The notes: generated by a model not told the origin, from the letters alone. DNA of 64,000 nt from Pecten maximus (GCF_902652985.1 NC_047026.1:31248001-31312000); one strand, 5' to 3'. Shown: positions 252 to 46,967, counted from the first letter of the stretch. Made by a program: numbers and translations.

Positions 252-3002
252 TTTGTCTTTTTCTGTAGCTCTTACATCTTCTTTTCTGAAACAGGAAACA
301 CAAAATAATAATAATTTTACCAGTAATTTTTGTACTTGTGATGAGATGTTCATGGCTCAATGGAATGATCCAAAGATAACTATATGTATACATAATTTGC
401 ATGATCAACAATATTTGTAACTGGTGTAAGATATAATGATATGCCATTATTCTTATAACTTTCATTAGTTACTATTGTATAAAACAGACAATCTTACTAA
501 GGCAGTAAACATACAACTATAGAGGTCTTCTAAAGGGTGTGATGCCTTCTAAAATTATTTTGACAGTAACCTTACTTGATGAGGCTTCCTAAAGGATGTG
601 TTGCCATCTATACTTATTTTACAGTAACCTTAATGAGCCCCCCTTAAGGGTGAAATGCCTTTTACACTTATTTTGACAGCAACCTTACCAGATGTGGCCC
701 CCTTAAAGGTGTGATGCCTTCTACATTTAGTTTGGCAAGAATCCTAGCTGATGAGGTACACTAAAAGGTGAAATGCCTTTTACACTTATTTTGACAGTAA
801 CCTTACCTGAGGAAGCACCCTTAAAGGTATGATGCCTTTTACATTTAGTTTGACAGAAAACTTCTCAAAGCCCAAGAAAGAGGGTGATGCCTGCTACATT
901 TATCTTGATAATAAACTTTAGCTAATGAGGCCCCCCCAAAGGGTTACCAGTGGTCTTATTTTATAAACTCAGTCTGTCACAGAAAACTTACCTGATAAGG
1001 CCCCTAAAGGGTTCTTTAAGTGTGATACATCCTACGCTTAAGATGGAACATTTGCAAAATCTTGGATTTACATTTGTGACCTGAAATACAAATAACTTTT
1101 TTGAATAACAACACTAATCAAAAGTTAATGACATATCAAAAAAAAATTTAAGGATTTTAAAATAACTTAAATGTTAGAAACTAGAACAAGAAAATCAATT
1201 GAAGTACAACTATAGTTAACCATAGTGTAAACAGAAGAGCATGTTTCACTAATACAAGACAATGTTTACTTAGTTTTTAACTTCAAGATAGTGTTTTGGT
1301 GAATATACCTATTTCCTTTTTCCTGCTGAACACAAGGTATATTAAACCGGTAATATCAATGATATTTCAGTTTATAATTAATCTCTAAATTTTGATTGAA
1401 CACTCTTCTGTTACACAGTTGTTAAGAATATTAAAGATAAAAAAACACACATTACTAAGTTACTGTTATGTTGGTAGCATTTCTTTAGTGAATTTCAATC
1501 TTTTTTATACATCATATGAACTGCATTTCTGTTTGCATTCTGTAAATCTCCACAACAGATATCATGTTTTAATGTCAGGAGATATGTAAACTGGGTGTCA
1601 CCTAACACTGAAAACCTATCAAGGCTATCATATCTTGAGTTGATGAGAATTTTATCCCTCCCATTTGTAAACTCGTACCTAGTGAAGCTGACAGGTAAGT
1701 TTGACCTTTAATTGTTCCCCTACAGAAACAATAACTTGTGTACTGGGTACACCTACCCTTGTTGTGACTACGGCATCCACTGTTGGCACAATGTTTAGTT
1801 CAGTGTCTGTTTTCACTTCCACAATAACCTGTCATATAAGAAGTACATACAATGTGCAACTTGGCAATAAAGAGAAAATACAGGCATGAAAAGTCTTTAG
1901 TCAAGTTTAAGAATTTTCAATTTGATGAGTTGTATATAGCTTTTGCAATGTATTATATATGCACATGCCATCACAATCGGATTCTGATTGGTGTCGAAAT
2001 GATTAAACCATTCATGATTTAAGTTATAACCTTTCAGACTAGTGTACAGGAATATAAATAGGAAAGCAATCGTGAAGATCATCTTCAGTACTTAAAGGGC
2101 TAGTTAATTATCAAATGTATATCATGCTTCAGCACAAATATTTTGGACCAAATTTTCAAAGTTGTTGAATGATGATGAGTTAAAGATAATAATCACATCA
2201 TATATATACCTGATCATTATCAGATCTTGTAGTTAAGTACCCAGCCAGACTGGCATGCACAAACCCTGATCTTGTGTATGTGCCATTACCAGACACCACA
2301 TTCTCATCATATCTGCATATTCTCTGACCTAAAAAAATGACAAGACACATTAGACAATGTTAGAAATACATGTACCAAAACTTTCAAACATATTCAATGA
2401 TTCCCTGATAAAATTTACAAATTTCTACACGTGACAATAAGACCTATCCGAAGAGGATGATGGCCATATTTAGATTAAATTGTATCACTGCTAGGCGTTT
2501 GAAATTCTGACAGTAAATCCATCATTATATTTCTTCTCAAGGTGAAGACGTTTATCCTATATTTAATTTGATTGTGTATAACGGTATAATCAATTCGTCT
2601 TAATACCATGCATTCGTGTTATTTTACATTATTGATATTAGAACTATCAATATCACAAGATTTGTATTAATTTAATGTTTCAATATTGATTAAACGGAAT
2701 ATAACTGAATTACCACCTGTACTTCTTATACCATTCATTTAATATATGATTTCGAGTCCAGTGATGTAACGTTAAGTAGAATCCACTGGAAATAAACTTA
2801 AATAAATATTGATCGGAAATCACTTTGCCGTTTTAACGGCAAAGTGATTTCCGATCAATATTGTTCATTTCTATGCAACACCCTTCATAAGCAATAGTAT
2901 GTTGGTAACATATCAACAGATCGCTAACAGTATATATTTTGAATCATTTTCATCGATAGATCACTTACCTGGAACACACACCTTTTCTATGGGGGCAGAC
3001 AT
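252..3002 (-). CDS. EXOSC1: Exosome complex component CSL4 (EXOSC1), 5' part; gene continues beyond the left edge
   Basis: Coding exons (minus) 3002-2969, 2328-2210, 1828-1757, 1080-992, 285-252, all GT-AG and phase-consistent. Translation MSAPIEKVCVPG/QRICRYDENVVSGNGTYTRSGFVHASLAGYLTTRSDNDQ/VIVEVKTDTELNIVPTVDAVVTTR/VTNVNPRFCKCSILSVGCITLKEPFRGLIR/KEDVRATEKDK matches the recognised CSL4 motifs (PGxR, GTYTR, SLAG, FRGxIRKEDVRATEKDK). Confidence 0.95.
521..986. repeat. Degenerate ~59-bp tandem repeat (about 8 copies) in EXOSC1 intron 4, derived from the exon 4 donor junction
   Basis: Units such as cttacctgaggaagcacccttaaaggtatgatgccttttacatttagtttgacagaaaa resemble the true junction cttacctgataaggcccctaaagg...gtgtgatacatcctac at 987-1035. 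Confidence 0.75.
2805..2862. repeat. Perfect 28-bp inverted repeat with 2-nt loop in EXOSC1 intron 1
   Basis: aatattgatcggaaatcactttgccgtt-tt-aacggcaaagtgatttccgatcaatatt. Confidence 0.95.
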
Positions 3003-24800: not shown

Positions 24801-25083
24801 ATCTCCAGAATAATTGTATCAGTTCCCCAATTATCGATGGAATAACATAATTACAGTAGAAATGGGATTTAGGAGGAGTTTACCCACAGTTAATATAGTA
24901 AAGTGGAGATCGAAGTGATTCACCAGGAAAATTATACGAAAAGGCGAGCAATGTAGGTGAGAATCGACTCTCAAATCAAGTTACTGAAATAATTTCAAAA
25001 ATGGACACAGCGTAGCTTTTGTTCTTTCCACCCATTTTGGGTTTGCTCAGTGGTATCCTAGATACCGACACTTTAGACCTTTA

Positions 25084-25128
25084 TCATTACCGACGAGTCC
25101 AGGGACTAAACAGCTATACAGTATGGTG
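25084..25128 (+). ncRNA. Degenerate solo copy of the 49-bp hammerhead unit
   Basis: tcattaccgacgagtccagggactaaacagctatac aligns to catcactgacgagtcc-tagaa-ggacgaaacagctgta, with core mutations. Confidence 0.4.
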
Positions 25129-25791
25129 CAGCTTATAGTCATAGGATCCGCGATACTCTTTTTAGGGAACGACTCCCAAAGTTAACATGTGGATTAAAAA
25201 TAAATACTTTCATTGTGTTATTTCCCTGCCATCATCGTAATTAAGGATAAATTAACGATTTGTTTCGCCTACTCATTATCATCTACAGATAATAATTACC
25301 TACCGATTATCAACATACTAACATCCTATTTCTCGAAAAAAATATTCCAGGTATAAGAAAGTTACGTGCCTCTTTTTCATTACAAATTATATAATTTTAT
25401 TAGATACAGCTGTATGATCCGATTTTCCTCGATTCTCATTGGCTAAAACAATGGTCACATGGAAGTCAATAACACGAGAAACATTATATTAACTTGATGT
25501 TTCTATTGGTAGAAACACAGAGTTAATACTGCGTTTATGGCATATCACTGTGAATTTACAACGGGCAAGCGTTTTTCCACCATGTTGCAAACAAGCTTCA
25601 TATCTAATATAAAAAAATCGAGGACATTCGATTTGGTTAATATGATGTTATACCAACCTGTAGTATCTAAAATATTGATCTCGGGCTACCAGGTTGGTGT
25701 GGCCCTATATTCACCCCACCGAAGTTCCATGTTTTAGTGAGGAAATCCTATGCCTGTAATTACCCCGCTATAGGGGAAGTTAGACATTTAA

Positions 25792-26263
25792 AGAGGCTTA
25801 CCCGCAGACGGACCGGTAAACGGCACATCTCCGATCACTAAATAAACTTCAGTACACGTTTCTATGTGACAAAATTAGAGGCTTTCCGACTTTATTTCTT
25901 GAAAACAATTACAGAATATGTATTTAAAAGACGTTTTAAAACTCAACCTGAGAGGGAAATGTATGGAATATAACGGCAAATCTTCTTTGTAAATCGCCGC
26001 TGCCTTTGAAGTTATCACTGTGCGGCACTGTGCACGTGCTTGTTTCTTTGATGTGTCAATCAAATTAGACTCCACTTTATAGCGGGGACTTATTGCGGGT
26101 TGCGATTAAATAAATAATATTTAAAAAATGAGGTTTTAATATCACTTTTCAGCGTTTTATAAGGAAAATAAAATGAAAAACTCAACAATTCCAACAATCT
26201 GTCATGTGTAAAAAATCTTTTTCTATTAGCCAATTTTTCTGATCTCTCTGCGGGCAAGCCTCT
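25792..26263. mobile_element. Kolobok-type MITE
   Basis: 17-bp TIR agaggcttacccgcaga / tctgcgggcaagcctct (1 mismatch), TTAA on both sides (25788-25791, 26264-26267), AG...CT termini. Confidence 0.85.
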
Positions 26264-26348
26264 TTAAATCCTGTATGTTTTATAAAAAAAAAAAATTCTC
26301 TTTTGCGGTTTTTTGCGTTGTTCACATGCTGTTTTATCATGTTTGTCG

Positions 26349-29300
26349 TTATGGTTCGTCGTAAAGAGCAGGAGGAGGAGGAGCATTTGCTTGAACTGAA
26401 GGTAGGGATTCATAATATATTGGAGGGGAATCACAAGAAAGCGGGACCGGTTGATGATGCTGGACATCGGGATGATAACCTGGTAGGATACTTTGCTGTC
26501 CGTGAGGCATCCACTGTGTGTGTCCTGTATCTGACGACTGTTGGATAATCCCACGTGACTGGCGAAGTGGCGGCAGGTGATGCGGAGGGGCATGTGGATA
26601 ATGACCTAAATGACAGATGAAGTAAAGAATAAACACTGTCTATGTACCATTGGACCCTGTTACGTCGATGAACAAATAACATAGGTCAGTATGTTATTAT
26701 AGAATAAAAAAAAACATAAACTATTTTTTAATACTTCACAATAGTATATAACAATAGCGAAATTTATACAATTCTTAATCAATCTTTGTCAATTAATTGG
26801 ATTTTATGAGACATTATAATTACATGTACATGTACTTGAATACACAATACTTCCTAAAATAAGTATGCGTTAAATTAATTTAGCGTTATGATATAAGACA
26901 GTGCTATATAACATTTATATTTGTGTTTCACACAATTCGAGTAGTAAAACAACTTATCACTGAATACTTACTTATACTGGTTAACATAGAAGTTCTTTTG
27001 TAGCCATAGTTTCACTTCACATCACACACACAAAAAAACGAATGAAATGTTCAGTAAGATAATTATTCTGACCTTGAAATGCTGGATATGTCGGTGTAGC
27101 ATTTAAAATCTGACCAGGGTGGGTCTGGTTACTTGTCCTGTTTTTGTAATAGCAACATACGGCGACGATGATAGCTATGGCGACGAAGAGTGCAAAACCA
27201 AGTACACTGCCAACGACTATGGCCACACTGTAAAGCCAACATTTACATAGTTGACATGCCGTATCGGTATAATAATACAGTACATAGTAATATCATGTGG
27301 CATATAGATACATATATTTCCATTTGCTCTGCATTGTCACTCTACCAAGCAAAATGGAAAGTTATCAGATCATAACATTATTCTCATTGGTGTTGGTGTT
27401 GTCTGATGCCACTATATCAGGTGTATGTTTGACGTCAAGACAATTCATGCGACTGGACTTAAAAAAACCGTTGATCAACGCAGCTTGCAATGATTTATGT
27501 AGTTCTCTTGTATAAAAGATGAAAATCACCAAAGTGGAATATATTGATTAAATTGTTAATATATGTTATATAGGCATCTTATACCTCAAGGTCCTCAAAG
27601 GTCCTCAAGAAGGAAGAACTATCCATAGTTATGTGTATAATGGGACCTAGCTCAGTAGCTACTCATCAGTAGGCAGCTTACAAATCTTGATAATTGGATT
27701 TCAGTTCTAGACAATTTTACAAAGATATAGCACGGGAGTATGACAAATTAATACAAACAATAACCTTTATTACTGCAATATACACTACACTTACGCGGCA
27801 TTGTCGTCTGATACTGGGACCTCTGTCGTTGTTGTGGATTCACAACACTCAGATGCACAACAACCCTGGTAACAGTAGCCTACATACGATGTCATAAAGT
27901 AATGGTAGTCATAGTGGTAGCATATAGTGCCTGTCATACCTGGAACATATTCAAATAGAAATAATCAGTATAAAACTGCATCTTTATACCAAACTACAAT
28001 TGTATGACCGATATAATTCATCCTTTAGGTCTTCCTCTCCTCGGCTAGACAATGTCACCAAAGCAATTTCATTTATTAACGCTAAGATAAAGAGGATTTC
28101 TTCTTTTTGAATAAAACATTAAGATATTCTGACATAACGAAAAATATCTCAGGTACAGGGCATATGTCAGAGTAGGAATGAAATTTATTTTGGATTCGTA
28201 TTTTTTTCTTTTCAAACAGACTGAAAGTAGTTTTGTAACCATGCATGAAAGAAATTATCACTAATGGCGAAAATATGTGTTTTAGAAAAAAGTGTTTATT
28301 TGTATAAACATGACACTGATCAAAGGATATAATAACATTGACCTAGCATTGAAATTTGTTGAATAATCGTTATTAACTGTTCTGTCGAGGTACTCTTAAA
28401 GTTAATTATATGTGAAACAATTGTATAAAAATGTCGTAATGTCCCAGTTGATGCGATATTTTGAAGGACGTATGCCCATTTTCACGATTTCCAGCGACAG
28501 ATGTCGAGTGCTGATGGAAAAATTAACCACACAAGGCTATGAGAGAAGCAGGTTGAAGGTCATAGAAAAGTTTTATGGTCTGGTCGACGTCGTGATCACC
28601 TTTGGAAGTATTCTATTTCATTGTGCGATGTCAGACATGTTCGATGTTTGTTGATACATCAAGTGGTTCTGTTTTCACCACCGTACTTGTAACTTAACTT
28701 GTAACTTATCTAGATTTGTATGGCGGGTGTCGTCGATTTGTCACATATATATATATGGTGGGTGTCGTCGATTTTTCATAGGTTTGTATGGTGGGTGTCG
28801 TCGATTTGACATAGGTTTGTATGGTGGGTGTCGTCGATTTGTCATAGATATATATATGGTGGGTGTCGTCGATTTGACATACACACATATATATATATAT
28901 GGTGAGTGTCGTCGATTTGACATAGATTTGTATGGTGGGTGTTGTCGATTTGACATAGGTTTGTATGGTGGGTGTTGTCGATTTGACATAGATTTGTATG
29001 GTGGGTGTCGTCGATTTGACATAGATTTGTATGGTTGATGGCGTCTATGAAGCAGAAGACGCTTAACCTTCCGGAACACCTGGTCTTATTCTCTTTGTAC
29101 TTTAGCAATGGTTTTCATGCAAATCATTAGTTTGGTGAAGATTTTACCCCCCGTTTTATCGACTTTGAGTTAGAATTATGAAACAGCTGTGTGGTGTCCC
29201 TTACATCACTGACGTGTCCAATAATGGTGAAACAGCTGTGTGGTGTCCCTTACATCACTGACGAGTCCAATAATGGTGAAACAGCTGTGTTATGTCCCTT

Positions 29301-30552
29301 ACATCACTGACGAGTCCTAGAAGGACAAACAGTTGTATGGTTTGGTTTATTTTGTTTAACGCCCTTTTCACAGCCAGGGTCATTTACATCTTCGCTAGCC
29401 AAGGCTTCTGATTACGTTACACTCCGCGAACCCTTGGCAGATATAGGCGTCAGTTCTGGCCCTCTAGCGGTGATTCGAAATTACCACCCTTCACGCATGA
29501 AATTTTCGACCAATCAAAACAAGCGTTACCGATTTACTTCATCGGTGATGTTTACAAACACACATCGAGGTTTGGTGTCATTTCGATGAGATATGTGATC
29601 AATGACTTATATGAATTGATCAAACACTGCGAATGTTCCCCCAAAGATTGTGATTTTTGTATTTAGGTAAAATGCCATGACATAGTCGGCAATGTAGCTA
29701 TGTACTGGGTGCCGCATTTTTTGTTTACTGCGAAACCAAGCCAGAATGTAAAACGCGATTTGATTGGGTGCCCTGGGATTCCAGGGCGCGACGGTTTGAA
29801 CACGACTATATCCGCCAAGGGTTCGTGGAGTGTAACGTAATCAGAAGCCTTGGCTAGCGAAGATGGGTCATTTAAGGACGTGCCTGGTTTTGGAGGTGGG
29901 GGGAAAGCAGGAATACCCGGAGAAAAACCACCGATCTATGGTCAGTACCAAGCAATTGCCCAACATGAGTTTCGAACTCGCAACCCAGAGATGGAGTGAT
30001 GATAAAGTGGCGGGACACCTTAACCACTCGGCCTCCGCGGCCCAACTGTATGGCGTCCCTTACATCACTGACGAGCCCTAGAAGAGCGAAACGGATGTAT
30101 CGTGTCCCTAACATCACCGACGAGTCCGAGAGGGCGAAACAGCTTTGTGGTGTAGCTCAATCATTTACTAAATTTATGTTCAAAGGTGATATTTACTTCA
30201 GAGCCGTTGTGAATCTTTTGAAGATGTACAGTTATCATGATATGAACTGAAAGCGAATTTCCTACACTGGCGTTTGCCCAGATTAAATACATTATAAGAA
30301 GAGGTCTGGGCAAACGTAATAGATTCATACACGTCTCAACACTATAGAGGCAGACTAAAATAAACCCGAGCCTTTTCCACTGAGTATCAAACACCATAGT
30401 CACAGAAGACTCGGACTGAAGGCGCAGATGAACATATGATACCGGACAACGACAGTTGCCATATTATTTTCGATAAGTATATTTCACAATTGTTTGCTCT
30501 TACCTGGGATCAACAACGTAAGTACCAAACCAATGGTATGACCGGGGGCCAT
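26349..30552 (-). CDS. CYYR1/Shisa-like (WBP1/VOPP1 group) single-pass membrane protein, 4 exons, 201 aa
   Basis: Exons (minus) 30552-30504, 27939-27795, 27227-27073, 26605-26349 (606 nt, phase-consistent). Signal-like MAPGHTIGLVLTLLIPG, Cys/Tyr-rich ectodomain ICYHYDYHYFMTSYVGYCYQGCCASECC, TM AIVVGSVLGFALFVAIAIIVAVCC, Pro/Gln-rich tail with PPIY (PPxY). The first exon is the least certain. Confidence 0.85.
28430..29170 (+). mobile_element. Decayed 3' end of a Penelope-like (Naiad-type, RT-terminal) retroelement
   Basis: Peptide SQLMRY...DRCRVLMEKLTTQGYERSRLKVIEKFYG...MSDMF* resembles the C-terminus of mollusc RT-terminal PLEs, followed by the 3' motif gggtgtcgtcg...gaagacgcttaaccttccggaacacctgg. 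Assignment by recognition. Confidence 0.55.
28708..29035. repeat. 33-bp minisatellite (about 9-10 copies)
   Basis: Unit atttgtatggtgggtgtcgtcgatttgacatag. Confidence 0.9.
29338..30043 (-). mobile_element. tRNA-derived SINE with V-domain-like core, interrupted by a MITE
   Basis: Minus strand: head gggccgcggaggccgagtggttaagg (A box), gagttcgaaac (B box), core ggtttttctccgggtattcctgctttcc, tail ...ggcgttaaacaaaataaaccaaacca. Confidence 0.8.
29387..29865. mobile_element. MITE with ~59-bp TIRs and 9-bp TSD (MULE- or AcademH-type)
   Basis: TIR catcttcgctagccaaggcttctgattacgttacactcc... / ...ggagtgtaacgtaatcagaagccttggctagcgaagatg; exact TSD ggtcattta at 29378-29386 and 29866-29874. Confidence 0.92.
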
Positions 30553-30999
30553 CTTGTAACGTTATTTGTCACCGTTAGCTACTCTATTCAATATACAGCA
30601 CACAAAAGAACTAGCACACCATCGCGCGCCTATTGTTTCACACACATTACCGATCTATATATAATATACAGGTATGATTTATACCCGTATACAAAGTATA
30701 TACACTGTGTATTTAAAGTTTTATTCGGGAGAAGAATTGCTGTATTATTCCATCTAAAGCGTCGTCTACGAAAAAAAAAGAAAGTTATTGGACATTGGTT
30801 ACAAATGGAATATGATTATTACGATAGGTTAAAAAGTATTCCATGTAAAATATGATAGAAATAATTCAATACTATCTGGCCGGCAAGAGGGCTGTGAATC
30901 ACATCTGATAGCTGATGTCTTTTGCAGTGGTGGGTGATCTGTTTTGGCTTAAAGAATTGTTCACTACGCTTAGAATTTCTTATACATAAAAACACGCCG

Positions 31000-31200
31000 A
31001 AGATGAAAGTGTTATGGTCGAAATCATTGTCTCAGCTGAGTACATTGTATATTCTATTTCCTTATGCGATATCAAGTCAGACGTTTTTGAAGTTGAACAG
31101 AAGTCGCTCTCTATTTCGGAGTATCTGGTCTAATGAAGCAGAAGACGATTACTCTTCCGGAACCCCGGAATTAAAGTCTTGGTTTATGGGTTATATGTTC
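31000..31200 (+). mobile_element. Second decayed 3' fragment of the same Penelope-like family
   Basis: aaagtgttatggtcga (K.YGR) ... gaagcagaagacgattactcttccggaacccc matches the motif at 29048-29083. Confidence 0.45.
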
Positions 31201-32674
31201 GTTTATTGTCAGTATTCTTTGTTTTTTAAACAAACGTGGACTTTTTATTGTTGTTTGGATGTTTGTGAAGGCAACCGCTATCTCATAGAATTGGATATCG
31301 GCGTTATCCTTTGGTCTGTAGCCTGTAATGTCGTATATACCCCACGTTAAATTTCCTGTGTAATGCAGTTGCATATTGATTACGAAATATAGTAATATAA
31401 TATATACAGCATCTGTTAGTAACATATTTAAATGTGCTATTAATTTGTGTATCTGATGTAAATCGTTAGATACAGTCTTGTATATGTATCGTAGAGGACC
31501 AGACAATAATGATCCATGATGTATATTGATTTACAGACGACTGTAAACACTTGGTACCTGGTAATTTTAAAAGTCACACCAAAGCTCCAGTTATTACAAA
31601 GATCTGTGGATACTAACCGATTGAGATATATTCTCAATCATTCTTACAAACTTTCACGATCAGAATATTTCTTGAATTTCATATTTCCCTAATAAATCCA
31701 ATTACGTTTTTTGCAAAATTTATGTTTTTGGTGAATTGTTAATCTGTAGACCAGTTTGGAGATAAATTCATGTAAGGTAAACTGATATACATGTAGTGGG
31801 AGATGAAGTCATTACATGTTAAAGCCAGTATAAGATAGCAGAGTCCGATAAAGTTTTATCAGGAAAAAATACACAACGCGGCGCGTCAGCACTTCTTGAA
31901 TAGACACGGGATGTTTTACTGAGAAAAGCTGCGCACATCAGCAAAAACGAACGCATGGTGCATGGTTGAGCTATCAAATGACAGCCGATCATCTCCAATT
32001 TTAACCTGAACATTTTTCATTACCCATATTAGCAAGCCTCGTGAAATGGTCAATGCCACCACTAAAAAGTCTGTCCGAGTTTCTTCTGTCAACGTACAGA
32101 TAGCTATATTTAATGTCCAGGTACTACTAGGAATTTCAGTTAAGTGCTTGATGACAAGGTACACATTATTTAACAATCTTACAGTTACATCCTGGGAAGG
32201 TCAAGGGCGCGTTAGCTATTATGGTAGGTTAAACCGACTAAAATCCGGTTCACTATTTATTCTATCTCGAAGAAAGTTATTTTCAACGAAAAGAATCGCC
32301 CGAACGACCAGTCATTTCCATTCTATCTTTGTCGGAAACATTGAATTCCTAAGATAAATGTTAAGATGGCCATAAGTCCATATTTGGTCAGAACAGAAAC
32401 AATATCGGGAATAAATCCTTATAGTGTTTTCATTCTTGAACCAAGTGCCAGGAAATATTGATACCTGCGCGTGGTAAAAGTCGCTTTACATCGTATTTGT
32501 TAAGTTCCGTGAGATCAACCTTTTCATGTTATGCTATTGTATTTGTTTACAAGTGATATCTATGTATTGATTTCCTGGAATACCACTGACATAATACTGT
32601 GAGAGTACACTCAAATTTAGGCGCATAACTGAATTCAAACAAGATAAGATATAAGCTCAATGATGAATTGGCGC

Positions 32675-34490
32675 ACTCGCAATACACTCGCAATACACTC
32701 ACAATACACTCACAATACACCCATAATACACCCATAATACACCCACAATACACCCATAATACACTCACAATACACCCACAATACACTCACAATACACTCA
32801 CAATACACTCACAATACACCCACAATACACCCACAATACACTCACAATACACCCACAATACACTCACAATACACTCACAATACACCCACAATACACTCAC
32901 AATACACTCACAATACACCCACAATACACTCACAATACACCCACAATACACTCACAATACACCCACAATACACCCACAATACACCCACAATACACTCACA
33001 ATACACTCACAATACACTCACAATACCCTCACAATACACTCACAATACACCCACAATACACCCACAATACACTCACAATACACTCACAATACACTCACAA
33101 TACACCCACAATACACCCACAATACACCCACAATACACCCACAATACACCCACAATACACTCACAACACCCACAAACCCCACAAGACCGCACAAACACTC
33201 ACAAACACCACAAGACACCACAAGACACCCACAAGACACCCACAAACAACCACAAGACACGCACAAGACACCACAAGACACGCACAAGACCCCACAACAC
33301 CACAAGTACACACCCACAAGACACCACAAACACGCACAAGACACTACAAGACACCACAAACACGCACAAGACACCCACAAGACACGCACAAGACACGCAC
33401 AAGACACCACAAGACACCCACAAGACACCACCACAAGACACGCACAAGACACGCACAAGACACCCACAAGACACCACAATACACCCACAAGACACGCACA
33501 AGACACGCACAAACACCCACAATACACCCACAATACACCACAATACACCACAAACACCACAATACCCACAAATACCCACAATACACCACCACAAACCCAC
33601 AATACACGCACAATACACCCACATCCACAGTACACTCACAAACACTCCACAGACACCCACAAGACACCCACCTCACAAGACACCCCACAACCACTCACAA
33701 TACCCACAAGACACCACAATACACCCACAATACACCCACAATACACTCACAATACACTCACAATACACCCACAATACACCCCAAACCCCACAATACACGC
33801 ACAAACACTCACAACACCACAACCCAATACAATACACTCACAAACCCACAACACCACAAACACCCCAATCCCACAGATACATCAATACACGCCACATACA
33901 CAACCACATACAACACTCACAATACACCACAATCAATCCTCACAATACACCCACATACACCCACAATACACCCACATACACGCACAATACAACCCACAAA
34001 CACCCACAATACACACACAATACACCCAACATACACCACAGACAATACACTCACAATACCAACACCACAATACACCACAACAAATACACTCACTCACCCA
34101 ATACACCCAAAGACAGCACAACGACAACAGCAAGACACCCCACGCACAAGACACCCACAAGACACCCACAAGACACGCACAAGACACCCACACAAGACAC
34201 GCACAAGACACGCACAAGACACGCACAAGACACCCACACCAATACACCACAATACACCACAATACACTACACTCACAATACACTCACAATACACCCACAA
34301 TACACCCACAATACACCCATAATACACCCACAATACACCCACAATACACTCACAATACACTCACAATACACTCACAATACACTCACAATACACTCACAAT
34401 ACACCCACAATACACTCACAATACACCCACAATACACTCACAATACACTCCAATACACCCACAATACACTCACAATACACTCACAATACA
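32675..34490. repeat. 11-bp minisatellite (CACAATACACY)n with a central CACAAGACAC variant and a scrambled core
   Basis: Direct reading; source of the 612-aa low-complexity ORF. Confidence 0.95.
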
Positions 34491-35861
34491 CGTTTCATCG
34501 TCCTAACCATAAACACATAAACACAGATAACCCAACCTACCATTTTTATATACACCTCATCTCTTTGATAATATAATATGTCCTATGTAATTAACACTAT
34601 TGGATGACAATGTGTCCCAAATGGATATAAAATACAGCGGTGTACTTTTACAGTGCAATTAAACTGAAATACGTTGATGAAAGCTATAGTATGACAGAAC
34701 ATCAGAATGAATAATTAAATATTGATTTTTCTAAATATAGTTCCAATACTGATAAGTAAACAACATCAACTATAAATAAAATCAATTATGAAAGCAATTG
34801 ATTGGAACCTATTCCATTTGTGTATTCAGTGGCAGCTAAATGAAACTCTGGTTGTTGACAAAACAAAATGTGTCTATAAATAACGCATTATACACATATT
34901 TACATATTTACAGAGACTGGCTTATGTGTGCTGTGGGAACCCGTTTGTTTACAGGTTGTGTTGAGATTACATTGGTGTACACCCAAGGATGACATTTTTA
35001 TAGGAAACGACAGCTCACGAGACCAGGTAACTAGACGCAGGAGAATTAAGCAGGTAAGTCGGGTACACAGTGTTTACAACCAAGTGATTGGTATGCATTT
35101 TAAATCGCGTATTTTGCTCGAGTGTGTGAACAATATTTTAAATGAGATGGAAATTCTCCTGTACTGCCCATCCAGAGAACTCTAGAGAACTACCACAAGG
35201 ACCCAGAAAGTGATGAAATGGTAGGGAAGTCGCCTAGGAATTCCTTCAATCGCAAGGAAAACCGCAACATATTTTGATGTGATGGTAGGATTGTCGCTAG
35301 GGTATAGTGTGAGTGGTAAGGGTATTCCTCGTCTATATAATTGTTGTTAGCAGATCAGCAATGTTAGCGGACATCTATAATTCATAAGTCGTCTGCCATT
35401 TACTCTTAGTTTGCTCAAAACCTTCATATTGACTATAACATTAAAACGGATCAATCACTGAAAGGCATAGTATAACATAAAACCTTTCCCCTGTCCATCT
35501 GGTAGACAGTAGAATTGTTATACTCTCTCAGGAAGACAATAATACAAGGTGATTTACACAGTCATTCAAGTCACTCAACAATAACATTCGTCCGTCATTT
35601 CAATTGTACCCGACTACCAGGCTTAAACGATGTGTAATATATATTAAATATTTTATGGTATACATACAAATAATGTAGCAAAAACAAATCGGTAAACCTG
35701 GCTCCACACTAGATTCTAGGTATTGGCAATTCTAAAATTAAGTCAGCAGAATTTGGTGTTGTGTTGTGTAACTGTATCACAATTCTGGTGGGTCGAGCAA
35801 ACAATACATACTGACGTTGTTAACATATATGGCACCTATACAAAAATGAGTTCGATACAAC

Positions 35862-36383
35862 ACCTCATACAGATGTTTTGTCCTTCTAAGACTCGTCAGT
35901 GATGTTAGGGACATAATAAAGCTGTTTCGTCCTTCTAGGACTCAACAATGACGTTAGTGACATCATACAGCTGTTTTGTCCTTCTGTGATGTTAGGGACA
36001 TCATAAAGCTGTTTCGTCCTTCTAGGACTCATCAGTGATGTTAGGGACATCATACAGCTGTTTCGTCCTTCTAGGACTCATCAGTGATGTTAGGGACATC
36101 ATACAGCTGTTTCGTCCTTCTAGGACTCATCAGTGATGTTAGGGACATCATACAGCTGTTTCGTCCTTCTAGGACTCATCAGTGATGTTAGGGATACCAT
36201 AAAGCTGTTGTCCTTCTAGGACTCGTCAGTGATGTTAGGGACATCATAAAGCTGTTTCGTCCTTCTAGGACTCAACAATGACGTTAGTGACACAATACAG
36301 CTGTTGTCCTTCTAAGACTCATCAGTGATGTTAGGGACATCATACAGCTGTTTTGTCCTTGTAGGACTCGTCAGTGACGCTAA
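35862..36383 (-). ncRNA. Tandem array of 11 minimal hammerhead ribozymes (49-nt unit); three consecutive perfect units at 36047-36193
   Basis: Minus-strand unit: ACAUCA-CUGAUGA-GUCC-UAGAA-GGAC-GAAAC-AGCU-GUA^UGAUGU-CCCUA. It has the canonical CUGANGA/GAAA core, a 4-bp stem II, a 6-bp stem I (ACAUCA/UGAUGU), an NUH triplet GUA and a palindromic stem III. Confidence 0.9.
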
Positions 36384-37479
36384 TGGTTTAAAGTGATATG
36401 GGTATGTTGTTTTAAATTATTGAGATATTAAGTTAACCAGGCGTTGGTGTTCGACTACGTCATGTTGTTTTGTAATGCCTAATTAAGCCCTACTGCACAA
36501 AGCAACGGCGAAGAAAGAATGTCCCCTGTTATTGGAATTATGTGGCAGAATAGCGGGAAACATCAACAGAAGAACGCTAATCTGGAAAAAAACTACAAAT
36601 GAAAAAAAACGTGAAATTATGCTTTCTAAAATATATAATGTTCTCTTAACGAGAGAAGGAACATGTTTGTTTTGTGTTGTCATCTTAAATGATATCGTTT
36701 TGTAAGGGAACGTCGCGTGTCGGTTATTGGCCCCAAAACAGGTCTTTGTTTGTTAACATCACATTCGCCACGTGGCGTTTTCCCTTTTAAATATACAGTA
36801 CATAAATTAAGATAGACATCGTTACTTTATCTCCCCTAACTGTAAATATTTACCGATCGGTTATCAAGAACTTACCAGAATGTGTTGAACTTCTGCGGTG
36901 ACAATATGGACTCCACATGCTATATAGTAATAAAACAATTTTCTAGTGATGATCAATTATTAGATTTAAACAAATGATAGCTGAAATAGTGTAATTTGTC
37001 TCGCGTTTTTGGCAGCACACATTTCATATTAAATTGTGCTGTGTGTAGCAGGATTAATGGGATGTACAATTGTACGACAAAAATATACGCCAATAGTAGT
37101 CAACATCTCTGGCGAAGTTAAAACCCATTAACAGTTTTCTTTATAGTTTCACCTGGTGTTTCCCTTTATTTATTGGATTGTGTTTCTAATAGATTTGTAT
37201 ATACTGTATTACTGGAATAGAATTATCTGTAGAAGGTACATTGACAACAGATCTAGCCTACAGTTATAAGGTGTCATTGTCTGACCCGAATTTCGTCAAT
37301 AGGAAAGCATTACCGAATTTAAGCGAGATGTTGTTGTGAAGTCCGATAATGCTTCCCGATGGAACATTACCAGTTATGTCCTAAGGTTAAGAAATATTGA
37401 TGAGACGGGGTTCCAAATCAAGGGCAATAATTGCATAATACATGAAAAATATTGATTTGCATGACAAAATGTCTATATT

Positions 37480-41885: not shown

Positions 41886-42805
41886 AGGCTAATAACACTA
41901 TCAATGTGTCAGGTATGTGGCCACACGTGTGACATACCTCCATATTGTACTAGAGGTATGATATATGTTAACAAGCGTGTTTCTCCATGCAAGTGACATC
42001 AGCAGTCATGTACGACTGTACACACGTGCATATCTAGAATTAGTCAAATGTGTATATGTTGACCAGGTGTACATCCATTAACACCAGCGCGTTTGATCGT
42101 GTGATGTACACACGTGTACCCCCAATAACACATGCAGTGTGTGACATTTATGTGGTGGCCTCGCGTGTAATTCGAATCAGTCATGTGATGTGTGTTGCCT
42201 ACGTTACAATAATACCTGCAGTGTGTGGTGTATGTGTACACCGTGTACTTCCTTCAGCAAGCGTACCGTGTCATATGTACATTTATGTGGCCACGCGTGC
42301 ATCTCGAATCAGTCATGTGATCACATGTGTGGCCCACGTGTACATCCAATAACACTAGCAATGCAGTGTGTGTGTATAAAGATAGGGCTAGAGACTTTAC
42401 TAAGACGTATATGAGCCGCCGGCTGGCATTTAGGTCCTTAAGTTCTATCCAATGAAAACGGAGAAAAAAGGGAATTCCGTCAGAGTTATTATTTCCATTC
42501 TATTTCCGTTTCGCGCGAAAACGGGAATCCCACTTGCGTTGCAAAAACACAAAATGCAGCTGATATACTTTGTTATAGATGAACTTTAAATACCTGTCCT
42601 TAAACTTTAGATATGTCGGTTAATTTTCCATTCAATAACATTAACGGTAAATGTAAATAAAAGTGTTTATTCAACAAAAATATCGACACGAAAGGGGTTT
42701 CCCCGTTTTCTGCCGAACACACTTCCGGTATTTACGTAGTTGTTTACATTCGCTACGAAGATGGCAGATGGGAGTGTTTAGGTCTAACGCATCAAGAAAT
42801 CGTAT

Positions 42806-45800
42806 ATGATGTCTCTTCCGCCAAATTTTAACGTAGTCGGATGTGATAGCGATTTAGCAAGTGAGATAGACGATGATTTTAGCCATTTCTTTCCGTGTAC
42901 AAGTCGGGTAAACAGTGGTACAGCTGAAGAGGTGAGTTCTGTCTCCGGTAATCAGGATGAAGATGTTGATTTTGACTATGACATCGAGAGTGATAATGAT
43001 GATGATGATGTGAGTAACGGCATTAGCGTTATTAATTCGCCGATTCTGCATACTCGGATGAGAGTTTTTATCAGAAATGACGTTGAAAGGGACACAGAAA
43101 ATGATTCTGATCAAGACACACTACGCAGTGATGACAACGAGGTTGATGATGATGATGATGATGACGACGAAAATAACTCGGACGAACGTGACGCACAGCG
43201 TAAATGTAAGAAGGGGTGTCTGTCCAAATTTCCCAATATGGATATCAAAGATAACAGATTGAATGTGCAGGGAATGGAGAGAGATGGCAGGGACATGTTA
43301 ATTATTGGACAGCTCCAGGCATGTGGCATGACAAGGGGAATACATGGTCAAACTAACGTCAAACGGCATCGCTTTGACTACCAATTCCAGAACACAAGTG
43401 TTTGCAAGGCTTGTTTCCTTTATGTTAATAACATAAATGCACATTACTTGAAAAACATCAGGGCCCATTTCGTCAAGAATGGTGCTGTTCCACGGATACA
43501 TGGAAATACAGGGAAAAAACCCAAAAATGCAGTGACCTATGATAATGTTCAACAAGTTGTCCAGTTTATTTCAAGGTAAGTGCTGTGCCGTATGTGTACT
43601 TATACACAGGTATTTAACATTAAAAAAAAAAATAAAAATGAAACCCATAGTTCTGTATGTAGAATATTCATACTTGTCGTGCATGTCATGATTAACATCA
43701 AACTATCTGTGCAGTCTGTATTTTGTTCTCTTTTGCTGGGGAAAAATAAATAAATAATACAACTGTTAGTAATTTAACTTAACATGTGCAAAACTTAATT
43801 TTAAAAAATCATCTCAAGTCACCTTGATTAAATATAAACATACCGGGTACATGTATTTTGAAATATAATAGCTATATTATTTATTTACATACATTCAATT
43901 GTAATAGGTCACAGTTTGATACAGACCTTGTCTGTTTCGAAATTTCCATTATACATATTTTACTATCAGCACAATGAGATATTTGGAAATGAATTTTGAT
44001 GTTAATTATTTTTTAATGCAGTTACATTTATCTGTTAGGTATGCAGATGAGATGGGATTGCCCCAACCTGCTGCACCACGTGGACGGGACAGCTTTCCAC
44101 CAATATATTTACCTGGAAGTGAAACCTATCTATCTGTCCATAAGAAATACAGCCAAGTATGTATGTAAGTATTATCCTCATAATGAAAAAAGTACTTGGT
44201 AATCAATTCATACAGCAATCCATGATAAACCAGTGTCAATTTTCACTGTTATGAATTAAATATTGTCTACAGATACATTTAATTTATAATCATAAAACAT
44301 TTGAAATAATGCCTTTATAAATTGGTTTAGCTATAAGAATATTTTTTTTAACTATGTATGCTTTAATTATAAACACAAACAAGCTGCTAATAAATTATCT
44401 TCCATCACTAGATATCTTAGAATTTGTCCAAATTATTTGTTAAAATGAAAATAATATATTTCAAACTTTGGAAATGACATTGAATTATTTGGTTTTAGTA
44501 TTGTTTATAATCGTCACCCTCCAATTTTATGATCTAGTGACATATCTATTTTCAACAGTGAAAGAGAAAACCGATGCCTATCTGAGACCACTTTCAGAAG
44601 AATATGGCACCAGTGTCTCCCACACATCCAGTTCATGTCCTGCAAGACAGATGTATGTCACAAATGTGAATCCTTTAGGAATCGGATACAGAAGGTAAGA
44701 ACCTAATCAAAACAAGTCTAATTTAATATCCATGGACATTAAAACCAAAATATCTTAATATATTTGAGTTCTAATTTTAGATAAACAGATAGTGATATTG
44801 TAATAATTCTACGTTCATATTCATTCATAACAATAATGGTATGAATTTATTAGTAAAATTACAAAGAAAACTTTTATTGCTTTAAACATCTTGTTATACA
44901 TTTTTATAGGTTCATTATATACATTTTGTATGTACAATGTATATAGAACATTTTGATGACATGTTAAGATAAGATTTTTGTACATATATTGTATCTAGGC
45001 CATCACTGAGGCAGATAAAATGGAGGCTAGCACAGACTTTGCAGAACACATTTAATCAGCCCAAAAGGAGAGAGACCATTATCGACAAAAATGTCATGCT
45101 GCTATTGCAGGTCGTCATGGTCATCCGAAGTCTACTGTTCCTGTTCCTCCAACATCCATGGACCTAAAAGATGTCCACTACACATTTGATTATGCTCAAA
45201 GTGTACTTCTGCCCAGTCATTGCAGACAGGAAGGAGCTTTGTACTTCAGGTAAAAAACAATTTACTGTCTGTTAAAAGGGAGAAGCAGTTGTTAAAACAG
45301 GTTACATTTAAAACCATTAAATCTCTGTAGTATTGGATCATATTTCATAAAATGTAATTCATGTATTAAAGATGTAAAGTTTCAATCTTGAATATCAGAA
45401 TAAAAAAATATCGGATTGAAATTAAAAGAAATGATCTTGAACACTATGCTTCTCTGATATTGTACAGCTTTTTCTTTCAGGTCACCATATAAAGCTAATC
45501 TATTTGGTATTTGCAATGATGGTCGGTCCCTGCAAACAAATTATTTGTTTGGCGAGGATCAGTCCATTGGTCTGGATGGTGCCCAGAGCCACTCGGCCAA
45601 TGCTGTTGTATCTATGTTGCACCACTTCTTCGAATACCATGGGGAAGGAGAAAAAACTGTGTACTTGAATGCAGACAATTGTGGTGGCCAAAATAAGAAT
45701 CAGGTATGGAATATTTGTTGTTGAGTTAAGAAAACACCTTAAAGGAGTGTGGCACATCAGTTAAGATCATTTGCCAAGTTGAACTGAATTCATTCAAAAA

Positions 45801-46967
45801 AGTCAGCAGTGTAAGTTTCTGTTTATCACAAAACTGGTAGTTATGCAAATATAAGGAGCAGGCTGTATGTTTCTTTGTACTGAAACAATTATTCAGCATT
45901 ACATAATCATTATGACATTATAAGTTACGTATTTTTGAAGCTGTTGAATGTTGATACCCACTCATCTCCGATTTCTCCAAAATTTTGTAATTGTGAAGTC
46001 ACAATAGTGTTATTATACAGGTGTTTTATTTTTGACATGCTAGTAGAAAGCAGGCCAGTAATATAATAAACTTAATAATACAGGTTCTTACACTGCTTTA
46101 TACAATGAACCTAATTTTATTTTTTTATGATTCAGGTTGTCACAAGCTATTTGGCTTGGAGAGTGGCAAAAGGATATCATGATGACATCCATCTACATTT
46201 CATGAAGCCATATCATGCCCGTTGTCTTGTGGATGGGATGTTTGGTATTGCCCGAAGGAAAATCAGACGCAATGATGTGGATAGTTTGTCTGACCTGAAG
46301 ATGACAATTCATGCTTCATCCACACATAACCAGGCAGATTTATACAGCGAGATGTCACCAAATTCGTGGATCTGGAGAGACTGGAAACAATTCTTCAAGC
46401 CTGTATTTAGAGCGGTTCCTGGTATTGGGAAATACCATCACTTTCACTTTGCTTCCACCACTTCAGGTACATGTACTGCTATATTTACATATTTCAATCC
46501 ATTTAATTTATATAATGTACTGCGCTTTCATTATCAATTACCTCCATGGGTAATTCCGCTAGATTTATGAGTCTGATTCTAATGATGTATTTGGTATGTG
46601 GGGCATGCAGAATTTTTATCCGATTTAAAAATAAAATGGTTTTGTACAGGTTTTTTTATTTTTATGTGTATCCCTTTCAAAACTAAGTTCAATTACAACA
46701 TGCCATTCCTGTTTCTTTCTTTCAGGAATGGTTACTGTTAAAAAAGGTGTTGACGGGGAGACAACGCCAGTGAGGCTTGTGAAGAGGGGAAAGATTATTC
46801 CACAGGGTTTGCCAGTGAGACTGGAGGCAAAAGGTTTTTCCGCAGAACGTGCATGGTACCTGTACAAAAATATCAGGCCTTTTGTAAAGGATCCGTCTAA
46901 GGACCTTCTATGTCCCCTGCCCACTGTCCCACAGCCCACCTTTAGACCCACCCACACAGAAGAATGA
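42806..46967 (+). pseudogene. Sola transposase, 7 exons, about 692 codons, one in-frame TAA at 45053-45055
   Basis: Exons 42806-43575, 44039-44164, 44559-44694, 44999-45249, 45481-45703, 46136-46466, 46726-46967 (2079 nt, GT-AG, phase-consistent). Motifs VCKACF, PRIHGNTGK, FRRIW..PHI..KTDVCHKC, HYTFDYAQ (D1), ADNCGGQNKN (D2), H....VDGMFG (D3), WRDWK, ERAWYLYKNIRPF..D.LCP. Confidence 0.9.

What the first reader, a model, noticed from the sequence alone, without database searches (positions are those of the whole stretch)
25084..36383. The hammerhead unit is a dispersed family, with variation partly at structure-neutral positions
Seen: three loci in both orientations (25084 +, 29180-30152 +, 35862-36383 -). 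Variants include CUGAUGA versus CUGACGA (the free position 7), stem II GUCC/GGAC versus GUCC-GAGA-GGGC (U-G pair, GNRA loop) and GCCC/GAGC (compensatory C-G plus one mismatch), and stem I UGAUGU versus UGGUGU (wobble). Many copies also carry inactivating changes (GUG triplet, lost GAAA). Units 2 and 9 of the main array share diagnostic changes (ctcaacaatgacgttagtg), showing later DNA-level block duplication. Inference: a mobile RNA-based family rather than one local slippage event.
Basis: partly seen in the sequence, partly recalled or inferred. Interest (0 to 1): 0.7.

Follow-up and report, generated by a model that had tools for sequence, protein, structure and literature searches.

The report
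Hammerhead minisatellite inside an old retrozyme
An estimated several hundred places in this animal genome carry chains of a 49-letter predicted self-cutting RNA motif inside an old, decayed small repeat that was likely spread by a retrotransposon's copying enzyme; the mutations look like ordinary decay rather than preserved function, but the chains have changed only about half as much as the DNA around them.

Summary
The three loci and all listed variants are real, and the family is genome-wide: 713 exact 28-nt cores, about 900 arrays estimated. The 49-bp hammerhead unit is not the whole element. Arrays sit in register between conserved flanks of a ~350-400-bp non-LTR retrozyme, whose single-ribozyme and partial-tandem copies also exist. 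Copies end sharply 91 nt past the predicted cut site and have staggered 5' ends, like Penelope-type insertions. Left over: array units are ~9% from consensus while their own flanks and single-ribozyme copies are ~20%, and one shared linker occurs behind two flank types. Homology-biased gene conversion reproduced the 9% in one simulated setting; a separately moving 49-nt RNA circle is not excluded. The scan noted local hammerhead minisatellites in two other genomes before, but not this sequence. New variant of a known kind.

The parts
25082..25132 (+). Single degenerate hammerhead unit: a single-ribozyme copy of the parent element, with a weakly matching 5' flank upstream (29 of 103 aligned bases differ) and the first bases of the 3' flank
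29171..29340 (+). Left part of a ~6-unit array (one partial and three units; GUG triplets, altered stem II)
29341..30043 (-). tRNA-type SINE (29341-29386 plus 29866-30043) inserted into the array just after a predicted cut site; ~10-nt target duplication (29331-29340 / 30044-30053, 8 of 10 identical); ~80-86% identical copies of its main part elsewhere
   Evidence: the A/B-box-like head is my reading of the sequence
29387..29865 (.). MITE nested in the SINE: 64-bp terminal inverted repeats (95%), 9-10-bp target duplication; an 80% identical copy in L176
30044..30153 (+). Right part of the split array (two units; GCCC/GAGC and GUCC-GAGA-GGGC stem II variants)
30154..30230 (+). Remnant of the parent's 3' flank, with a deletion (20 of 67 aligned bases differ)
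35863..36382 (-). Main array, 11 units of 49 bp (two of 47, one of 38), starting and ending in register with the parent
35994..36189 (-). Four adjacent units with intact cores; three keep the 8-nt palindromic stem III. Predicted cuts after 36151, 36102 and 36053
35779..35861 (-). Remnant of the parent's 3' flank (profile score 9.5 bits, weak)
36383..36410 (-). Short remnant of the parent's 5' flank tail (seen by eye only)

Best explanation
These are copies of an old, decayed ~350-400-bp repeat whose single predicted type I hammerhead has been multiplied in place into a 49-bp minisatellite, and which was likely spread as RNA by a Penelope-type reverse transcriptase. Shown: conserved flanks, in-register arrays, single-ribozyme and partial-tandem parent copies, a sharp 3' end 91 nt past the predicted cut, staggered 5' ends, neutral decay. 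Predicted: two adjacent units fold into a double hammerhead with an 8-bp stem III. Inferred: the duplication arose once (one linker everywhere); array-bearing RNA was copied uncleaved or partly cleaved, so arrays arrived as multimers; afterwards slippage changed unit number, and homology-biased gene conversion within arrays kept units nearer the founder than their flanks. The family is now largely dead DNA.
For: Flanks shared across unlinked loci, ~190 bp 5' and ~90-100 bp 3'. Flank searches recover single-ribozyme copies and tandem 3'flank-5'flank-unit-3'flank copies (L094, L104, L116, L123, L129, L200, L204). Array ends cluster at the parent's borders (21 of 77 starts at one position). The end motif is present in 30 of 54 3' flanks; by eye only 2 read on into the junction, and there is no common A-tail. 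The end lies 91 nt past the cut. In the anole Penelope element, RT starts at ORF +111 to +118 with the cut at +26, and uncleaved RNA is the main template (PMC11167929, main text read). Long open RT + GIY-YIG frames exist in this genome. The dimer fold is the minimum-energy fold, z = -4.6. No covariation. Only 24 loci match the 33-nt parent exit junction with <=1 mismatch; none of the 20 examined has young flanks. A conversion model with donor competition gives 0.094 to consensus and 0.133 within arrays, against 0.088 and 0.123 observed.
Against: No cognate autonomous partner: 0 of 50 GIY-YIG loci carry this ribozyme; the minimal hammerheads found there are of other sequence. No target-site duplications (0 of 16 of >=8 nt) and no excess of head-to-head arms (8 diverging, 8 converging in 147 loci); both tests are weak on copies this old. 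Only 1 of 18 conversion settings matched, and it assumes arrays arrived as identical multimers; plain or homology-dependent slippage never went below 0.157 (32 settings). Divergence drops abruptly from 0.235 to 0.084 at the first base of stem I, and small flank-found arrays (4-7 units) are also near 0.06-0.13; both fit later arrival as well. The shared linker resembles the type-B flank's tail yet sits in type-A copies, which needs at least one module swap.
Confidence: 0.55

Rival explanations
1. The 49-nt cut-to-cut product is itself a minimal circular RNA. A Penelope-type RT rolls round it and switches templates onto retrozyme RNAs, or its cDNA recombines into old genomic copies, so ribozyme-competent arrays were laid down later than their flanks.
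For: The period equals the cut-to-cut distance, and adjacent units are predicted to self-cleave as dimers. Units are ~9% from consensus, their flanks 19-23% (13 loci, Wilcoxon p = 0.0002) and single-ribozyme copies 22-24%. Array flanks are star-like with no close pairs (pairwise 32-36%). The step is sharp at the unit border. One linker occurs behind two flank types. The array consensus matches single-ribozyme copies over 42 nt.
Against: No sign of selection in unit variation; array-majority variants often hit the core. A DNA-only conversion model can reach the observed divergence. 5'-truncated arrays show at most a weak excess of starts near the cut site (about 6 of 24 by eye). No raw reads were available to show a 49-nt RNA.
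Confidence: 0.2
2. The parent spread as RNA with one ribozyme; the array module then spread among existing copies purely at DNA level, by ectopic gene conversion or excised DNA circles recombining through the 42-nt homology.
For: It explains in-register borders, old flanks with younger units and the module swap between flank types. DNA-level turnover is evident: near-identical locus pairs differ in unit number (L039 8 vs L110 4), and a 24-bp derivative satellite grew from the unit (L032).
Against: A 42-nt homology at 10-20% divergence is a poor recombination substrate (established knowledge). Neutral ectopic conversion would let the array consensus drift from the single-copy consensus, and it has not. 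None of 17 loci found through the type-A 5' flank had an array of 3 or more units, which fits 5' truncation of long templates better.
Confidence: 0.15
3. The carrier is a DNA element (Helitron-derived or MITE-like with central tandem repeats, common in bivalves by recall) and the hammerhead is incidental.
For: Conserved flanks around a variable central array is the usual layout of such elements (recalled; not tested against a library).
Against: One end is sharp and the other staggered, and the 3' flank reads on into the 5' flank in tandem copies, as for a circular or tandem RNA template. The repeat is a complete hammerhead that passes Rfam's gathering score.
Confidence: 0.06
4. Arrays are kept near consensus by host selection, for example as cleavage or decay elements in introns or UTRs.
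For: Reduced divergence of units; contigs of RNA libraries hold the family.
Against: Only 328 of 1190 units pass my intactness rule; core and stems are not spared; dead variants are amplified.
Confidence: 0.04

Closest known systems
Metazoan non-LTR retrozymes (Cervera and de la Pena 2020, PMC7229834; passages and sections 14 and 17 read), especially the mussel family of ~350-390 bp
   Same: Non-coding, AT-rich ~350-400-bp monomer with one type I hammerhead; tandem and solo copies; Penelope-like elements in the same genome.
   Different: Here the family is old (~20% diverged), with no young copy found and no long monomer arrays seen. In 16 of 66 loci found through flanks or the exit junction, the ribozyme alone is multiplied to 49-bp units. 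Circular RNA was not shown.
Vertebrate non-LTR retrozyme families of 51-972 bp (Li, Clavereau, Pollet 2026, bioRxiv 10.64898/2026.07.22.740005; parts 1-3 of 5 read, supplements closed)
   Same: Units of about 50 bp with a hammerhead in each repeat are within their reported range, and they discuss local minisatellite growth from Penelope termini.
   Different: The text read does not describe ribozyme-only arrays nested in a longer retrozyme, shared across hundreds of loci and two flank types, and no mollusc is named among the groups sampled. Their supplementary tables could hold such a case.
Penelope-like elements: pLTR hammerheads (PMC4209133, passages) and internal RT initiation (PMC11167929, main text)
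   Same: Short stem III with palindromic loop that needs dimers; sharp 3' end about 90 nt past the ribozyme cut; 5' truncation.
   Different: No ORF linked to this ribozyme; the hammerheads found beside this genome's ORFs are other, minimal motifs.
Double-hammerhead conformation (Forster et al. 1988, as cited in PMC4209133)
   Same: Two ribozymes share a palindromic stem III.
   Different: The spacer between ribozymes is reduced to a 5-nt loop, so the repeat is nothing but ribozyme.

Membership tests
Type I hammerhead ribozyme (RF00163) | CUGANGA and GAAA core, NUH triplet, stems I-III | tested here: met
   Four intact cores in the main array; 13 units elsewhere pass the gathering score; window units 33.9 vs 34 bits.
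Type I hammerhead ribozyme (RF00163) | Covariation or selective conservation of stems and core among copies | tested here: not met
   Expected for dead copies of one founder, so this does not exclude an active founder.
Type I hammerhead ribozyme (RF00163) | Self-cleavage | not testable with these tools
   Only the fold is predicted.
Non-LTR retrozyme | Small non-coding monomer with one type I hammerhead | tested here: met
   Parent ~350-400 bp; no Penelope ORF hit next to the element in 125 records.
Non-LTR retrozyme | Tandem head-to-tail organisation, dispersed genome-wide | tested here: met
   Partial tandems of the monomer at 7 loci; listed matches on all 19 large contigs across.
Non-LTR retrozyme | Expressed as linear and circular monomer RNA | tested here: inconclusive
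   Contigs of RNA libraries hold the family, but contigs cannot show strand, ends, circles or the source locus.
Non-LTR retrozyme | Homology to the pLTR of an autonomous Penelope-like element | tested here: inconclusive
   0 of 50 GIY-YIG loci (30 best plus 20 chosen from 150 listed, 300 candidates); an extinct partner would be missed.
Penelope-type insertion | Fixed internal 3' end and variable 5' truncation | tested here: met
Penelope-type insertion | Inverted (head-to-head) arms or target duplications | tested here: inconclusive
   8 vs 8 orientations; 0 of 16 target duplications; copies are ~20% diverged.
Helitron-derived or MITE-like carrier | Two fixed termini with hairpin or inverted repeats | tested here: inconclusive
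   5' ends are staggered, which argues against; no formal hairpin search.

The most novel reading that the evidence does not exclude
A 49-nt RNA circle made of nothing but a hammerhead ribozyme acted as a parasite of a parasite: released by dimeric self-cleavage, it was copied round and round by a Penelope-type RT and written into some 900 old retrozyme copies of two subfamilies, making it the smallest ribozyme-based mobile element found in these searches.
Probability: 0.2. Interest if true: 0.8.

Novelty: new variant of a known kind. Interest (0 to 1): 0.45.

Why it matters
It shows how a genome-wide minisatellite family can be born from the ribozyme of a retrozyme. The 91-nt distance from cut site to 3' end, close to that measured in vitro for a Penelope element, adds genomic support for Penelope-type mobilisation of retrozymes. 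An RNA with 10-30 back-to-back hammerheads that was still copied whole bears on the open question of whether cleavage and circularisation are needed for retrozyme mobility. The two-fold gap between units and their flanks is a natural test: it reflects either biased gene conversion in short arrays or a minimal circular RNA element.

Tried and rejected
Selection on the core: a raw test gave p = 0.035 but vanished when bases were matched. Covariation: none. Slippage as the cause of low unit divergence: rejected in all 32 simulated settings. Search bias as the cause: positions outside the search pattern are equally conserved, and two samples not chosen on the core show the same gap. Cognate Penelope partner, target duplications, head-to-head arms: not found. 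Expression: 4 RNA or guessed-RNA runs were laid; depth over the array is family-wide and mostly shows the CUGACGA form, so it says nothing about this locus; uncovered flanks prove nothing. Runs under two other organism labels hold the unit; under label C, contigs span 3 or more units and loose ends match both flanks, but the orthologous locus was not covered, so gain or loss of the array could not be read. The 59-bp repeat at 530-1010 has hammerhead-like words but is single-locus and failed the core scan. Left out before counting: L032 (24-bp derivative satellite, 9 segments), 12 of the 30 loci (11 overlapping duplicates and the window's own locus), units with more than 4 gaps (152 of 1342). 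Literature searches for a prior description of this architecture found none beyond the papers named; bioRxiv supplements were closed and I opened no other supplements.

Full report
Observation. A scan of both strands finds the unit at three places only: one degenerate unit at 25082-25130 (+), an array at 29171-30153 (+) and 11 units at 35863-36382 (-), well above shuffles. All listed variants are present. The middle locus is one array of about six units, split by a SINE (29341-30043) that holds a MITE with 64-bp inverted repeats and a 9-10-bp target duplication. The 49-bp unit is almost wholly a type I hammerhead: 6-bp stem I, 4-bp stem II, the full core, a GUA triplet and an 8-nt palindrome at stem III. 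Window units score just under Rfam's gathering threshold; units elsewhere pass it. Two real adjacent units fold, at minimum energy, into the double-hammerhead form (-29.7 kcal/mol, z = -4.6); two separate monomer folds are 14 kcal/mol worse than the dimer fold.

Genome-wide family. The genome (918 Mb, 19 large contigs; earlier unchecked notes call it a scallop) has 713 exact matches to a 28-nt core and 770 to the 33-nt unit junction, with none for the reversed controls. On three contigs the two patterns mark 51 and 36 loci, 11 shared, which extrapolates to about 900 arrays (a rough lower bound). Contigs of runs under a second organism label hold multi-unit arrays and both flanks.

The real element. 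Arrays share a 5' flank of about 190 bp and a 3' flank of about 90-100 bp, and begin and end in register with them. Searching with the flanks returns copies with one ribozyme, and copies in which the 3' flank reads through a junction into the 5' flank and a second ribozyme. The parent is thus a tandem or circular monomer of about 350-400 bp, the size of the mussel retrozyme (PMC7229834). Arrays of 3 or more units occur at 9 of 29 loci found by the 3' flank, 7 of 20 found by the exit junction and 0 of 17 found by the 5' flank. A second 5' flank type (B) exists: 7 of 12 candidates score 8.9 bits or more in leave-one-out tests, against at most 1.0 for shuffles. Arrays behind both types use the same linker, which resembles the type-B tail. 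The 3' end is sharp, 91 nt past the predicted cut, with no common A-tail; 5' ends are staggered. In the one Penelope-like element studied in vitro, RT starts 85-92 nt past the ribozyme cut (my subtraction from the paper's coordinates) and uses mainly uncleaved RNA (PMC11167929). Long open RT + GIY-YIG frames exist here, but none of 50 loci examined carries this ribozyme. No young parent was found among 20 of the 24 loci nearest the exit junction.

Variation. In 1190 near-complete units from 85 arrays, pairing at each of 10 stem pairs equals the independent expectation within 0.01, and core positions vary like non-core positions with the same base. On the window's own 17 units, 56-93 of 500 shuffles reach the observed pairing and covariation measures. 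C>T at ribozyme position 7 (14%) and G>A at G8 and G12 (about 10%) are the two CpGs; the family consensus is CUGACGA. The 'compensatory' GCCC/GAGC stem occurs in 1 of 1190 units. Only A>G at unit positions 3 and 43 stand out (about 20% against 1-9% at other A); both allow G-U pairs and both are common in single-ribozyme copies (9 of 24 each), so they are inherited states. Only 328 of 1190 units look intact. 49 of 66 long arrays have local majority variants, core-killing ones included, which confirms DNA-level turnover.

The anomaly. Units are 8.8% from consensus. At 13 loci with both flanks, flanks are 22-23% and units 9%. The ribozyme part of single copies is 22-24% diverged (24 copies, a few with doubtful alignment; 11 copies). 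Eight arrays found only through a flank give 6-16% and seven found through the exit junction 12%, so search bias is not the cause. Array flanks are as far from each other as single-copy flanks, and divergence steps from 0.235 to 0.084 at the first base of stem I. Neutral copying cannot lower mean divergence from the ancestor, and simulated slippage did not. Conversion in which the most similar unit wins as donor matched the data in 1 of 18 settings, starting from 14 identical units. A DNA explanation therefore suffices if arrays arrived as multimers; later arrival from a 49-nt circle fits equally and is untested.

Mechanism. Most likely (0.55): one duplication of the ribozyme through a short homology gave the 49-mer (inferred); array-bearing RNA was copied uncleaved or partly cleaved by a Penelope-type RT starting at the fixed 3' site (inferred from anatomy and PMC11167929); at least one swap joined the array to the other flank type (inferred); slippage, biased conversion and CpG decay followed (turnover and decay shown; bias modelled). 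A complete cleave-and-circularise cycle would strip the array from the parent, so arrays imply either escape from cleavage or rebuilding at the cDNA step. Rivals: a separately moving 49-nt circle (0.2), DNA-only spread of the module (0.15), a DNA-transposon carrier (0.06), host selection (0.04).

Comparison and novelty. Retrozymes are known (PMC7229834), and hammerhead repeat families down to 51 bp are listed for vertebrates (bioRxiv 10.64898/2026.07.22.740005; supplements closed). Six searches found no description of ribozyme-only arrays nested in a retrozyme across hundreds of loci. Earlier scan notes report one-off hammerhead minisatellites in two other genomes (unchecked) and nothing for this sequence. 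PMC8557442 and PMC8490949 were seen as passages only and changed nothing. Interest 0.45.

Noticed in passing
window 530-1010 (+): Degenerate 59-bp tandem repeat with hammerhead-like words (CUGAUGA, a GC stem, sometimes GAAA); single-locus in the genome search and not passing the core scan.
   Followed up: partly
window 26431-27880 (-): Exon-like frames for a small membrane protein (Cys-rich stretch near 27790-27880 read by eye, transmembrane segment at 27017-27292, Pro-rich tail). Whether the arrays lie in its introns was not resolved; the main array would be in the sense direction.
   Followed up: no
L032:23-3239: An 8-unit hammerhead array grades into a long satellite of about 24 bp built from the stem III-stem I half of the unit: a second-generation repeat that has lost the ribozyme core.
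   Followed up: no
L169, L170, L174, L175, L176, L183, L187, L188: Penelope-like loci (several with open frames of 700-930 codons) carry minimal hammerheads with the U3-A8 core variant; L174 and L185 also show a second motif type.
   Followed up: partly
L060:2759-3082: Two arms joined head to head, both beginning within a few bases of the predicted cut site; a single case that would fit RT running off a self-cleaved RNA.
   Followed up: partly
L039 vs L110; L190 vs L191: Near-identical locus pairs (92% and 95%, second member on small contigs) differ in unit number (8 vs 4; 14 vs 13), showing recent length change.
   Followed up: partly
L127 and L123: Other short pieces of the parent element (junction region, part of the 5' flank) have also grown into local tandem repeats, so this element seeds minisatellites in more than one place.
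   Followed up: no
window 2807-2860: Perfect 54-bp palindrome that draws sub-threshold miRNA and snoRNA matches; probably a repeat-derived hairpin.
   Followed up: no
window 42788-46967: Fragmented open frames that look like a decayed DNA-transposon gene; not scanned against families.
   Followed up: no
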